A stretch of 63,725 nt of DNA, the filler included, from Collodictyon triciliatum (lineage: Eukaryota): the NCBI GenBank assembly GCA_043381765.1. It is 8 parts of 8 records of this genome, joined end to end, with 100 filler letters (N's around TTAATTAATTAA, not from the genome) between each part and the next. Parts side by side here need not be neighbours in the genome. Positions count along the whole stretch, not along the records: positions 26,321 to 34,987 come from JBHJMP010003332.1; 7 more parts are not named here. One strand, given 5' to 3'. The stretch's first letter is position 1, and each line of letters begins with the position of its first letter. The notes under the pieces are model-generated. The model saw only the letters and a list, made by a program, of their open reading frames with translations. It was not told where the DNA came from and ran no database searches. Positions 27,022 through 56,300 of the stretch are shown in pieces. Made by a program: the position numbers and the translations under genes.

Positions 27022-29585
27022 TCAGAATCCTGATTGGTTGGTCTCTGCCATGGTCTGGTCGAACTCTGGGTAGGCATGCCCGCCGTGCTCCGTGCGGTCG
27101 AGCCCCTCCATTTCGATTTCGCGGGACACTCGAAGTCCGACAAACTTTTGAAGAGAAAAGAAAAGTGTTGCTGACAGCACGATGGTCCACACGGATATCA
27201 CTAAAATCCCAAGGATTTGCACTCCCAGCTGCTCGAATCCTCCCTGTGGACCACAACCAAAAGGTTGAGTGACTGCAACAGAAACTGGTACCTTCCAGAG
27301 TTTTTAACGACATTGACGGATGTCATGTAGAGAAAAAATGGGGCAGATAAAGGAAACAAATGTGAAGCAACGCAATATTAGTGACTAAACATGTAGACAT
27401 ACACCCATGAATAGTCCATAGGATGCGGGGCTTTTGCTGGTGCCGTGGAATTTTCGAATACAGTCCTGTGTGGCGAACAGACCGACACTCAAAACTCCCC
27501 AAATCCCACAAGAGCCATGGACAGCAGACGCACCAAGAGGGTCGTCCACCTGAAACTTCTCAAGCAGGTTCATCGAGACGTTGAACGTTGCAGCTCCAAC
27601 CACTGTATTTTTGATAAATAAATATGAAAATACATCTTCCCCCTCTTCATTCCATTCAAATTGCAGGAGGGTAAAGCCATATATGAAGACACATAAGGAA
27701 TATACTCAGGACCAATCATATATTGTAAAGACAAACTCATCAAAATTTCCCTTCTCACCCCCAATAATCACAGCCGCCCATGAATCAACAAATGCGCCGG
27801 CTGCTGTGATCGACACGAGTCCCGACAAAAGTCCATTCAAGACAGAGGTGAGGTCGTAAGTATTACTCTGGAACTTCTTCCACGCCAGTGTCGATAAAGC
27901 AGAAGCAGCAGCAGAGAGTGTTGTGTTCATAGCCACCTGTGCAAAAATGCTATATTTTCATATTTCCATACATATCTGATCTTGATTATCTTTTCATATG
28001 TTTAATTATACACAAAATCCAGCAATAGGTATTTAGACAGACTCTTCCGGCTATCTGCCACCGGTTTTGTGTCAACGCTAAAGTCGAACCAGGGCTGATT
28101 CCGTACCAACCAAACCAGAGAATCACTAAATATAATTCCACACATGATGAGGAGAGGATATGATACATAAAATCGACCTTACGGTTGAGATAATCATTAC
28201 ATGTCCCTAGTGATGACATCGTGATGGAGTGTCCTTCGATTTTATAGCTGCGATGGTCATCAAAGCGACCTAGACGAGGACCAACCATGATTGCACCGAG
28301 CAGACCAACCAACCCACCAACCTATCAAATCTGAAATGAGCTAATGACGCATCAAGTTATCAGAAGAAAAATAGACGTGATTCAGATTAAATGTGATGTC
28401 TGTAGACAAGAAGCCGTCTGGCGTTGATTAGAGGGTTTACCAAATGAACGACACCGCTTCCAGCGAAATCCAAGTATCCATTTGTGCCTTTGAATCTGTT
28501 TTCAGCATATGGGCTAAGCCATCCGGATTCAGACCAGCACCCTATGTTTGCAATGAAGCAGTTTTGACACCCTGGCTTTGGGGAGTACCAAAATATATCG
28601 CACGGTTCAGACACTCAATACCAAGCAGGATGAAAGACTCACACCGAACAATCATAGGATAAATAAACCCTGAAATAAAGAAAGTCGACAGCAGGTACGA
28701 TTTGAATTTGAAGCGCTCTGCAATACAGCCACTAAAAATGGTTGGTATCATGGACGCAAAAGCCCAGGAGAAAACCCAATGACCATACTGGTTTGTGGAC
28801 CGCATGAAAAAATTGTCCTCTCCAACAGCTGGATTTGACTTTCCTGTGTCTTTCTCGCCATAGGCAATACCATATCCAATAGCCCAGAATGTCATCGCCA
28901 CAACAGCCGTGTCCAAGATATTCTGCGAGAAACATGCAAAGTTGGTCATGTTAGCATATATCGACTATCAGAATTCGTCTCTATTCTGTACCAACGTCGT
29001 TTCCCCTCCTTAGGAAATTTAGATATATTTTATCTTATTTATCTTTGGAAGAGCGAGATAGAGCCTCACTTTCAGGAGAATGTTTTTCGTATTTTTCGCG
29101 CGAACTGAACCAGCCTCCAGCATTCCAAAGCCAGCCTGGGTGACTGAATAGAATGGAGTTCAATAATGATATGCAGTAACCAATGCATTCTTTAGAAAAA
29201 ATACACCGAATTACTTGGCTTTGGTCAAAACGAAATTTAAAAAAAAAAATATATGTCCGCAGAACAAGTGATGGTGAAGCTTACAAAAGACAAGGAAGGC
29301 AGAGAGCAAAACCCATGCGCTATTGACAGACATTTCTAAATCATTTGCGACACGCTGCAGTCCAGCAAGTGAGGCATCCTGGGCTGTGCAGGTAGGGCCG
29401 GAATATCCCTCTGGACAGAAACAAACATACGCGGCGTCGTTTTGAGAGGGGAGGCAGAAACCCACACCACACTCGGAGTTTTGTGTGCAGCCAAAGACTC
29501 CAAAGTTTGCGGTTTGGAGCAGTGATATAAGCAAAGCCGCAGAGAGCGTGATGCGCGCTCGTCCGTGCATTCTTTGTCGATCCAT
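27022..29585 (-). CDS. Ammonium transporter (Amt/Mep family, AMT1-like) with N-terminal signal peptide and EGF-like domain; multi-exon
   Basis: Motifs [98 protein letters not shown] and [19 protein letters not shown]. Stop at 27022-27024. Confidence 0.95.
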
Positions 29586-53352: not shown

Positions 53353-56300
53353 TTAGTCATCACCAGCAAAGACGGACTGGGGTTGGGACGGGGCAGGGGT
53401 GGGGATAGGGGCACCAGGGTTTCCAAGGAGGCCGGAGGCAGCGCCAAAGAGATTGATGGGATTGTTTCCGTTTGTGAGGACGTAACCCTTGAGGCCGAGA
53501 CCCGAGAGGAGCTTGGCCTGGAGTTCAGGGCCAGCGTTTGCCATGGCACGGATGGTTTCTGGGCCAATGGAGCCGACGATGTTTCCAAACTTCTTGGCCT
53601 CGATGGTGGCCAAGTCGCGGGCCTTTTTAATCTCTAGCTCGATAAGGCTGCGCTCGTGGGCGATGTCTTCCTCTTGTCTAGCCTTGAGCTGGTTGAGGGC
53701 TGCATCAGCTTCGATTTCGGATGCCTCTGCCTTGAGCTTTGCGATTTCGACGCTCATTTGACCCTCGATGTCACGGGCAGCGGCACGGGCCTGAGCAGAG
53801 CTGGCGGCACGACCTGAATGAGGAGATTGGCAGAGCGAGTGAGTGAGTGAGTGAGTGAGTGAGTGAGTGATAGGAAATTGTGAAAGTTTTATGCATCTCT
53901 TGCTTTCCTTTTCTTTTCGTTATATATAAATTTTAGAAAAAAAGAAGAAAAAAAAGAAAGAAAGAAAAAAGACCTTTGCTCTCGATCTCTGCCGAGTAGC
54001 ACTGAAGCTGGAGCAGCCTTTCGCGCTCCTGCTCGGCTAGGGCCTGATCCTTGATGCGCTGGCGCTCGAGTTTTCCTTTTGCCTCTTGCTCATTGCGCTC
54101 GGCCTCGTGGCGTGCGGAGGCCTCTTGGGACTTTGTGGTAATTTCGATGGCGAGCTGGACAGACTTTTGGAGGGAGTCGCGCGTGCGCTGGTCGACAGGC
54201 TCGACGCTCTGGATATCGATGTTTGTGACCTTGAGGTTGTTTGCAGTGAATGTGTAGCTGTCGCGGATGCGGCCGGCCTCGTCCTCGCCAAAGACGGCAG
54301 CGCGGATGACGCGGGCGGAGGAGCGGTGGAAGGTGTCGAAGGGGGTGGAGGCGACGGCGCCGCGGATCTTGGAGGCAATGGCCTTGCAGGCGTCGCCGAC
54401 AAAGTCCGGGACCTGGAAGAGCTGTGCAGCCTGGGGCGGGGAGGCGCGGTCGATGTCAAACTCCCAGTTGTAGGAGAGCTGGAGCTGGAGGCGGGCGTGG
54501 TCGGAGGTCTCGACCTTGACGATGTCTGTCATAAAGTCGGGGCCGAGCAGCAGGCAGAGGGAGCGGATGGTGTTTGGCTTCTTGGGCTTGCCGCCGGAGA
54601 GGGAGAGGACGGTGAAGTGCTCGTCGGGGCCGAGCATGACGAGGTCGGGGCCGAAGACGACGCGGGCCTGCTTGTCCTTGTAGTCGTAGATCTGGGCGGC
54701 GGCGTTGTGGGGGACGCGGTAGGTGACGACGGCGGAGCGGGTGCGCTGGACAGCAGGGGGGGCGGCGGCGGGGGCGTTGCGGGCGGCGGCGGTGCGGTCG
54801 GCCAGGGCGTTGACGCCGAGCAGGTCCTCGACGTCCTTGGGCAGGTCCTTGTCCCACAGCTCCTCGTTGGCCAGCAGCATGTAGCTCTCGCCCTTGACCA
54901 TGCGCACCTTGCCCGTGCGGATGTCGCGCACGTAGATGCCCTCGTTCTCGTCGAGGGGGATGGCCTTGCGGCGCTCCACAACCTCGACCTGGACGGGCGG
55001 CACGTAGTCGGTGGCGCCGTAGACCATCCAGCGGTCGCCGGGGCGGCGTTGGACGGCAGCGGCAGCCTCTTGATCGTGCTCTTGATCGTGCTCTTGATCG
55101 GGCTGCAGGGGCCGCTCCGGGGTGGCGTCGTCAAAGGCCTCGCGGGCGCGCAGCAGCAGGGCCTCGTCCTCGCCCAGCACGTAGACGTCCTGGATGCGGT
55201 TCTCGAGGCGCTCGCCCGGGCGCAGGAAGAAGGCGCGCTCGCCCTTGCGCAGCTCGCGCTGGCCCAGCTGGGGCTTGCCGCGGGCATCGACGGGGTCGAG
55301 GACGACGCAGTACTGGCGATTGGTCAGGACGGTGATGGGGACGTCGCCCAGGACCTCCTCGTAGACGTCGGGCACGTGCGTCTCGGCGTCGGCCAGGGTG
55401 ACGAGCCACTCCTCGCCGGCCTTGCGCTCCTTGCCAAAGACGTCCGTGAACGTGCGCCCCGCGCGCAGATGCAGGGCGGCCTTGTCGGTCAGCACGGCCG
55501 CAGCCACGGTCGCCACAACCTCCTCGTCCACGTCCGGCAGATACGCGCCCGCCTCGCGCACCAGCCACTCCTCGCCCGCCTTGCGCTCCTTGCCCTGCGC
55601 GTCCGTCAGCGCCTTGCGCGCCCGCAGCCGCAGCGCCGTGTGCGGCTTCACCACGTGCGCCTTGACCGTCTCCACCACCCGCACCGCCACATCCGGCAGG
55701 TACGTCCCGGGCCCCCGCGCCAGCCACTCGTCCCCGGCCCGCCGCTCCCCGACATCCCGCAGCGCACGCAGCCGCAGCGCCGTGTTGCGCGCAATCTGCG
55801 TCAGCTCCGTCACCGCCTGCTCCACGCGCTCCCCCGGGTACAGCGCAAACGGCGCCTGCGTCAGCCGCACCTCCTGGTCCCCGTGCCGCAGCCGGTACTG
55901 CCCGCTCCGGTCCTTCACCGCCTCCTGCCCCTCCGCCTCCCGCACCACCGGGTTGCTGATCACGCAGTAGTGCTGCGGCGGGATCGTGATCTGCACCCCG
56001 CGCCATCATCCCGCCGCGTGACCGTCGGAGCGGTGCAGAGGAGAGGAGAGGAGAGGAGAGGAGAGACAAGACAAGACAAGACAAGACAAGACAAGACAAG
56101 ACAAGACAAGACAAGACAAGACAAGACAAGACAAGACAAGACAAGACAAGACAAGACAAGACAAGACAATAGAAAGAAAGAGAAAGAAAGACAGGCCAGT
56201 TAGCTTTCTTACTTTCTCACAACACTATGTTTCTTTTTCTTTTTCTTTTTCTTTTTCTTTTTCTTTTTCTTTTTCTTTTTCTTTTTCTTTTTCTTTTTCT

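What the first reader, a model, noticed from the sequence alone, without database searches (positions are those of the whole stretch)
28088..28125. The same Amt has a substituted Phe gate but keeps the twin-His pair
Seen: TM6 reads [14 protein letters not shown] (codons ATC AGC at 28099-28094) where the family consensus is WFGWxGFNxGS. The residues equivalent to E. coli AmtB F215 and N216 are therefore I and S. TM3 reads [15 protein letters not shown] versus the usual FQWAFAxTAxTIxSG, and TM4 has VRWCW versus SHWxW. Equivalents of F107, W148, D160, S219, H168 (GVVHL) and H318 (AVHG) are retained. Known: F215 is a near-invariant gate residue needed for AmtB activity. Inference: the binding site looks intact but conduction may be altered, which fits a sensor or changed substrate selectivity and supports the EGF-receptor idea.
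Basis: partly seen in the sequence, partly recalled or inferred. Interest (0 to 1): 0.75.

Follow-up and report, generated by a model that had tools for sequence, protein, structure and literature searches.

The report
Ammonium transporter with altered inner gate
A protist ammonium transporter naturally lacks the inner 'gate' phenylalanine that most of its family keeps, a change shared with a related protist and seen again in other protists and bacteria; it is probably a retuned transporter rather than a receptor, and a natural test of what the gate does.

Summary
Confirmed. The 9-exon, 519-aa EGF-Amt gene has Ile302/Ser303 at AmtB F215/N216. Contigs of two other metagenome studies carry the same codons, and a Diphylleia rotans transcript protein (72% identical) has Leu/Ser, the same TM3 change and the same H145R. 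The protein is not decaying: it departs from 6 of 83 conserved columns (family median 5.5).

A sister paralogue has the EGF module with a normal Phe-Asn, so EGF and gate change are not coupled. The two structurally proven Amt receptors keep the gate. Single inner-Phe mutants still move ammonium in plant AMT1s, and AmtB F215L loses methylammonium uptake but still supports growth.

Aliphatic plus Ser/Thr at these two positions recurs in other protists and in bacteria, including a Nitrospira copy beside glnK-glnD; in all 5 bacterial genomes checked, and here, a canonical copy is also present.

Best reading (0.55): a second-copy ammonium transporter with a retuned gate (lower rate, methylammonium excluded, possibly NH4+ slip). 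Low-flux sensor or regulatory subunit: 0.22. No transport assay exists. The scan earlier noted gate loss in another genome's Amt-cyclase fusion. New variant of a known kind.

The parts
27022..29585 (-). EGF-Amt gene, 9 exons (29585-29285, 29143-29070, 28922-28643, 28541-28441, 28321-28201, 28125-28043, 27936-27759, 27602-27403, 27243-27022), 519 aa; start codon assumed (M1 or M6)
   Evidence: 8 of 8 introns GT-AG, no internal stop; the same 8 intron positions and phases fit paralogue C1537
29490..29585 (-). Probable signal peptide, aa 1-32
   Evidence: inference from a hydrophobic stretch before the first Cys; no predictor was available
29388..29489 (-). EGF-like domain, aa 33-66, six Cys
   Evidence: Pfam PF00008 22.6 bits, cut-off 21.5
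28743..28772 (-). TM3: F176 (=F103), S177 (=Q104, changed, common), F180 (=F107, outer gate, kept), M183-I184-P185 (rare; shared with P0002)
   Evidence: I184 in 0 of 162 other domains, P185 only in P0002 among 165, M183 in 1 of 162
28644..28646 (-). R218, in place of AmtB H145
   Evidence: R in 4 of 164 other domains, also in P0002 and paralogue C9209, not in C1537 or C6695
28534..28536 (-). W221 (=W148), recruitment site, kept
28468..28470 (-). D243 (=D160), kept
28444..28446 (-). H251 (=H168), first twin-His, kept
28094..28099 (-). I302-S303 (ATC AGC) in place of F215-N216: the substituted inner gate
28085..28087 (-). S306 (=S219), recruitment site, kept
27517..27546 (-). D399-D400 (=D309/D310) and H408 (=H318), kept
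27022..27130 (-). Short cytosolic tail with the family's ExxGLD...HG motif; no fused signalling domain
   Evidence: consensus of alignment A1

Best explanation
An intact AMT1-type ammonium transporter, one of several EGF-bearing paralogues in a diphylleid-like flagellate, whose inner gate was retuned after duplication. Shown: the recruitment site (W148, S219, D160, F107), twin-His, exit Asp and C-terminal motif are kept; F215/N216 are I/S; TM3 and H145 changed with them in the same two species. Inferred: ammonium still binds outside and passes the single remaining Phe and an aliphatic inner gate to the twin-His; the loss of the inner ring lowers the rate, stops methylammonium passing and may let more substrate through as NH4+; the bulkier M183/I184 and P185 on TM3 may repack the space left by the ring (untested). 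The EGF module is a trait of the whole paralogue group, most simply a disulfide-bonded outer module for stability, sorting or partner binding, and is independent of the gate change.
For: Codons confirmed in two other studies. Orthologue P0002 keeps the same set of changes at 72% identity over 345 aa; window+P0002 form one branch, 100/100. Only 6 of 83 columns conserved at 80% or more depart, against a median of 5.5 in 164 relatives; path from the clade's fork is 0.47 for the window against 0.62 for the Phe-Asn paralogue. AlphaFold2 model of P0002 with 100 sequences: pLDDT 91.7, Amt fold. AtAMT1;2 F271A: wild-type uptake, reduced 15N discrimination, no K+ transport (PMC6856177); AtAMT1;1 single gate mutants keep substantial activity (PMC13745463); AmtB F215L: no methylammonium uptake, slightly slower growth on micromolar ammonium (PMC3355798). 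A Nitrospira Amt with L/S and otherwise canonical pore residues lies between nadE and glnK-glnD.
Against: No assay of this protein or of any natural I/S or L/S variant was found. AmtB F215A, H, S and W are inactive and PMC6856177 says F215L strongly reduced ammonium uptake. The plant data are for Ala, and none combines the change with N216S, H145R and a TM3 proline. AtAMT1;2 F271A still carried methylammonium, so methylammonium exclusion is extrapolated from AmtB. In 5 of 5 bacterial genomes checked, and in this genome, a canonical copy also exists, so the variant never has to do bulk uptake. Nine of 18 pattern-found variants also lost the first His, and the other non-Phe rows of the main set depart from 9-37 conserved columns, so gate loss often goes with wider remodelling.
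Confidence: 0.55

Rival explanations
1. A low-flux or non-conducting copy that senses ammonium (transceptor) or regulates canonical partners in mixed trimers: ammonium binds the intact outer site, and the change of state is passed on through the C-terminal motif or a partner protein.
For: Always found beside a canonical copy (5 of 5 bacterial genomes; here C1537 and three AmtB/Mep-type genes); tandem to a canonical amt in Frankia and Leifsonia loci. Residues equivalent to the Sd-Amt1 N1/N2 site are kept (F106, E110, N126, T186, N354) and the unique P185 sits next to T186. The closest solved structures are Sd-Amt1 and Ks-Amt5. Dictyostelium AmtA/AmtC were proposed as sensors without fused domains (PMC2653498).
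Against: The N1/N2 residues are generic (131-149 of 164 relatives; also in AtAMT1;1). Both proven receptors keep the Phe gate and have cytosolic output domains; this protein has none. The EGF module is shared with a Phe-Asn paralogue. Closeness to Sd-Amt1/Ks-Amt5 reflects the AMT1-type clade: the whole alignment hits them first.
Confidence: 0.22
2. The pore was rebuilt for another small solute (an amine, CO2 or water) rather than ammonium.
For: Changes cluster at the outer half of the pore (Q104, H145, positions 110-112, F215, N216); aliphatic plus Ser/Thr arises repeatedly (15 non-Phe rows need 11 changes).
Against: W148, S219, D160 and both His are kept; F215L in AmtB removed, not improved, methylammonium uptake; the F107A/F215A double mutant passed no methylammonium, K+, H+ or water; the Nitrospira copy sits with glnK-glnD.
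Confidence: 0.1
3. Tolerated drift in a redundant paralogue: the change has little functional effect.
For: Single gate changes are tolerated in plant AMT1s; the genome has many Amt/Rh genes (41 exon matches on 15 contigs); I versus L differs between the two species.
Against: F in 154 of 165 and N in 154 of 165 relatives; both are lost together in 8 of 11 non-Phe domains against 3 of 154 Phe domains; the same companion changes are kept in two species 28% apart. The phylogeny-aware test is only suggestive (7:1:1 of 9 pairs, p about 0.07).
Confidence: 0.12
4. Assembly or gene-model artefact.
For: No cDNA of this organism was seen; the confirming contigs are short and of depth 2-3.
Against: Two studies give identical bases; the motif lies inside one exon; a transcript protein of another species has L/S.
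Confidence: 0.01

Closest known systems
Diphylleia rotans EukProt protein EP00002_Diphylleia_rotans_P023877 (P0002), unannotated
   Same: 72% identical over 345 aa; L/S at the gate, same TM3 stretch, H145R, twin-His kept
   Different: Leu rather than Ile; its ends do not match the window protein (they look like retained intron or frameshift), so its EGF module and tail could not be checked; further departures (R195C, T273V) may be assembly errors
Plant AMT1 transporters (AtAMT1;1, AtAMT1;2) and their engineered inner-Phe mutants
   Same: AMT1-type core, N1/N2-equivalent residues, C-terminal motif; AtAMT1;1 also relies on an outer N-terminal disulfide (PMC13745463); F271A keeps uptake
   Different: Wild types keep Phe-Asn and have no EGF module; mutants are Ala and lack the N216, H145 and TM3 changes
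E. coli AmtB F215L (engineered)
   Same: Aliphatic residue at the inner gate with twin-His intact; ammonium growth kept, methylammonium uptake lost (PMC3355798)
   Different: Other subfamily (22-23% identity); N216 intact; seen only second-hand
Ammonium receptors Sd-Amt1 (8QJ3/8QJ4/8QPF) and Ks-Amt5 (6EU6)
   Same: Best PDB matches by sequence and fold; N1/N2 residues present
   Different: They keep both gate Phe and carry cytosolic cyclase or kinase domains; the window protein has the opposite pattern
Natural L/S, L/T and I/T Amts of Nitrospira, Planosporangium, Frankia (L064, L066, L055-L057, L069) and protist representatives P0024, P0152
   Same: Aliphatic plus Ser/Thr at 215/216 with twin-His kept
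   Different: Separate branches, no EGF, uncharacterised

Membership tests
Amt/Mep/Rh (PF00909) | Profile match and Amt fold | tested here: met
   P0002 294.9 bits; window exon 3 56.5 bits, cut-off 23.2; model of P0002 pLDDT 91.7, TM 0.82 to Af-Amt1. The window protein itself was not folded.
Amt/Mep/Rh (PF00909) | Twin-His pair (H168/H318) | tested here: met
   H251, H408
Amt/Mep/Rh (PF00909) | Recruitment site W148/S219/D160/F107 | tested here: met
   W221, S306, D243, F180
Amt/Mep/Rh (PF00909) | Complete Phe gate (F107 and F215) | tested here: not met
   F180 kept, I302 at F215; typical rather than required: 11 of 165 near relatives lack it
Amt/Mep/Rh (PF00909) | Ammonium transport | not testable with these tools
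   needs yeast, oocyte or liposome assay
AMT1-type clade | N1/N2-region residues (Sd-Amt1 F25, E29, N45, T104, N269) and C-terminal ExxGLD motif | tested here: met
   F106, E110, N126, T186, N354; tail
Ammonium receptors (Sd-Amt1/Ks-Amt5 type) | Fused cytosolic transducer domain | tested here: not met
   protein ends about 20 residues after the C-terminal motif
Ammonium receptors (Sd-Amt1/Ks-Amt5 type) | Intact Phe gate with the pore narrowed below the His pair | tested here: not met
   gate changed; receptors keep it; narrowing itself could not be measured
Mep2-type transceptor | Signalling separable from transport | not testable with these tools
   no sequence test known to me
EGF-like domain (PF00008) | Six-Cys profile match over the cut-off | tested here: met
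   22.6 bits against 21.5
EGF coupled to gate change | EGF-bearing copies all lack Phe-Asn | tested here: not met
   of 4 EGF-bearing genes in G000, TM6 is readable in 2: window I/S, C1537 F/N; in C9209 and C6695 it falls in a gap or off the contig

The most novel reading that the evidence does not exclude
Aliphatic plus Ser/Thr at AmtB positions 215/216, with twin-His intact, marks an undescribed functional class of Amt that evolved many times in bacteria and protists as a second copy: an ungated, NH4+-slipping or methylammonium-excluding channel that acts as an ammonium detector (a depolarising or pH signal) or as a tuning subunit; in diphylleids this class carries an outer EGF module that ties it to a surface partner.
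Probability: 0.15. Interest if true: 0.75.

Novelty: new variant of a known kind. Interest (0 to 1): 0.42.

Why it matters
The role of the inner gate phenylalanine is unsettled: one group found it essential, another dispensable, and plant work links it to deprotonation. Those data are engineered single mutants. Here evolution made the change, kept it in two protist species with companion changes, and repeated it elsewhere, each time checked beside a canonical copy. Natural pairs (window gene versus C1537, 51% identical; the Nitrospira L/S copy versus its Phe-Asn paralogue, 66% identical) make the question directly testable. It does not by itself reveal a receptor.

Tried and rejected
No RNA holder listed for the stretch: no evidence either way on expression. 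EGF-Amt fusions elsewhere: exon 1 found nothing among 310 candidates and no usable Atlas hit; none of 152 proteins then held had a C-x-C-xx-G-aromatic-x-G-xx-C motif; all are weak negatives. Pattern scans found no further diphylleid orthologue: 16 of 34 matches were not Amts; the pattern demanded both changes and missed TTR-Leu codons, so it shows recurrence, not frequency or covariation. P0101 looked non-Phe in pairwise BLAST but is Phe-Asn in the multiple alignment. The idea that the dictyostelid L/H-Q/H copies are the proposed sensor AmtC was dropped: the search returned Cavenderia, Heterostelium and Acytostelium proteins and no D. discoideum protein among the 120 listed. P0072 (V/S, similar loop after TM6) did not group with the window protein; its place is unresolved. 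Single-sequence fold of P0002 failed (pLDDT 40). Models give no coordinates, so contacts between TM3 and TM6 were not measured. Data on the N216-equivalent: CaMep2 N240 and ScMep2 N246 align to it and an N240A structure exists (6EJ6), but no text on its phenotype was found; my recollection that ScMep2 N246A loses methylamine but not ammonium transport (Van Nuland 2006) is unverified. Hall and Kustu 2011 and Rutherford 2008 were not held. Not-in-print statements rest on searches of an open-access library only; supplements were not read and may hold alignments showing such variants.

Full report
Observation. The minus strand at 28125-28088 encodes [12 protein letters not shown], with ATC AGC at 28099-28094. 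It is exon 6 of a nine-exon gene at 29585-27022; all 8 introns are GT-AG and the product is 519 aa without a stop. The N-terminus has a probable signal peptide (inferred) and an EGF-like domain above the Pfam cut-off. Of 14 listed runs, 4 were laid; contigs from X5 and X10, two different studies, span the codons with no difference at depth 2-2.9, X2 does not reach them, and X1 has only a short foreign-looking piece. The nearest protein is P0002, a Diphylleia rotans transcriptome product, 72% identical over 345 aa, with Leu-Ser at the gate, the same TM3 stretch and the same VRWCW. From this I infer that the window comes from a diphylleid-like flagellate; I tested no other gene for that. HMMER alignment of P0002 to AmtB fixes the numbering: L/S on F215/N216, R on H145, with F107, W148, D160, H168, S219, D310 and H318 kept.

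How unusual. A full-library search with P0002 listed the best 150 of 14,632 representatives. In the 165 Amt domains they hold, F215 is F in 154 and N216 is N in 154; 8 of the 11 non-Phe domains also lost Asn, against 3 of 154 Phe domains. On a tree of 186 scored rows the 15 non-Phe rows need 11 changes; a test on 9 independent pairs gave 7:1:1, p about 0.07, so covariation is suggestive only. Q104->S is common (29 of 165) and clade-wide. Rare and shared with P0002 are M183-I184-P185 in TM3, R218 and W315. The window protein departs from only 6 of 83 strongly conserved columns (median 5.5), whereas the 10 other non-Phe domains of that set depart from 9 to 37. It is a targeted change, not decay. 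An AlphaFold2 model of P0002 on a 100-sequence alignment is a confident Amt fold (pLDDT 91.7); such a model leans to the alignment's consensus and says nothing about pore function.

Own genome. PF00909 gives 41 exon matches on 15 contigs: AMT1-type, AmtB/Mep-type and Rh genes. Four genes carry the EGF-like exon. C1537 has the same 8 intron positions, the EGF module and canonical WFGWYGFNPG, with F107Y and S219A instead. TM6 of C9209 and C6695 is not in the assembly. Window+P0002 form one branch (100/100), joined by C1537 (90/95 in IQ-TREE on 28 rows; 99 for the five-row group in FastTree). So the EGF module is older than the gate change and occurs without it. An earlier scan note says a D. rotans transcript has the EGF-Amt layout; P0002 lacks a comparable N-terminus, so I could not check it.

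Recurrence. Exact-pattern scans for an aliphatic plus Ser/Thr version of the motif gave 18 matches in species genomes and 16 in metagenomes; 12 and 6 are Amts. Nine of these 18 keep both His; 9 (Leifsonia-like) lost the first His and D310. The Nitrospira copy L066 is canonical at the other tallied pore positions and lies between nadE and glnK-glnD. All 5 genomes checked, of the 12, also hold a Phe-Asn copy. Dictyostelids have an L/H or Q/H version, as does paralogue C523 here.

Literature. PMC6856177 (parts 1-2 of 4 read): AtAMT1;2 F271A keeps wild-type uptake and methylammonium transport, shows reduced 15N discrimination and no K+ transport; it states that AmtB F215L strongly reduced uptake. 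PMC3355798 (passages): F215A/H/Q/S/W inactive in methylammonium uptake, F215L without methylammonium uptake but growing only slightly slower on micromolar ammonium; second-hand for Javelle 2008 and Hall and Kustu 2011, which I did not see. PMC10433425 (passages): no direct evidence that F215 deprotonates. PMC13745463 (passages): single gate mutants of AtAMT1;1 stay active; an outer N-terminal disulfide is needed for the oligomer; the N1/N2 region is conserved without a transceptor role shown. PMC5764959 (passages) and PMC11152129 (passages and first quarter of Results): both receptors keep the gate. PMC2653498 (passages): Dictyostelium Amts export ammonia and were proposed as sensors. PMC7256485, PMC10794816, PMC4852598, PMC7048316, PMC5890159 and PMC13377633 (passages) gave nothing on N216. 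Searches listed no paper on natural variants of this kind, 47 none on EGF-Amt proteins, and 67 none on diphylleid Amts; only listings were seen for most hits and the library is open-access only.

How it most likely works. Shown: intact outer binding site, outer Phe, twin-His, exit Asp and C-terminal motif; aliphatic inner gate; no cytosolic output domain. Inferred (0.55): it still conducts ammonium, as a second copy with lower rate, probable exclusion of methylammonium and perhaps more charge movement; the TM3 changes may repack the gate (that positions 110-111 face the pore is recalled from AmtB structures, not tested). Rivals: low-flux sensor or regulatory subunit (0.22), tolerated drift (0.12), another substrate (0.10), artefact (0.01). 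The facts against the best reading are that no natural variant has been assayed, that most AmtB F215 changes kill activity, and that the variant never occurs alone where I checked.

Verdict. A member of the Amt family, AMT1-type, failing only the typical full Phe gate; not a member of the Sd-Amt1/Ks-Amt5 receptor type. The value lies in a repeatedly evolved, apparently undescribed gate variant with natural canonical partners for comparison. New variant of a known kind; interest 0.42.

Noticed in passing
L001:304-1101 (+), L002, L003 (G000:C2853, C1509, C6666): Three Rh-type genes with ankyrin repeats in frame before the transporter domain (Pfam Ank plus PF00909 in L001 and L003; L002 by eye).
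   Followed up: partly
L021 (G000:C1537:87-2611, minus): EGF-Amt paralogue with Phe-Asn intact but F107Y and S219A: the two paralogues changed different parts of the entry path.
   Followed up: partly
L023:228-488 (G000:C523): AMT1-type paralogue with L/H at positions 215/216, like the dictyostelid copies P0087, P0157, P0158 (L/H, Q/H); too short to place in the tree.
   Followed up: partly
L066:1436-2878 (minus); L064: Nitrospira/Nitrospirae Amt with L/S at the gate between nadE and glnK-glnD, 66-69% identical to a Phe-Asn paralogue in the same genome.
   Followed up: partly
L059, L060, L062, L065, L068, L070, L047: Leifsonia-like loci with a divergent Amt copy (first His and D310 lost) directly downstream of a canonical amt.
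   Followed up: no
window 28126-28200: Intron 5 is 75 bases with no in-frame stop; retention would add 25 residues just before TM6.
   Followed up: no
P0004-P0016, P0025, P0054, P0078: Large proteins (938-2804 aa) with two Amt domains, forming one branch; in several, one of the two domains has a changed gate.
   Followed up: no
window 53933-56005 (minus): The GC-rich stretch (0.66-0.72 against about 0.37) is a major vault protein gene.
   Followed up: partly
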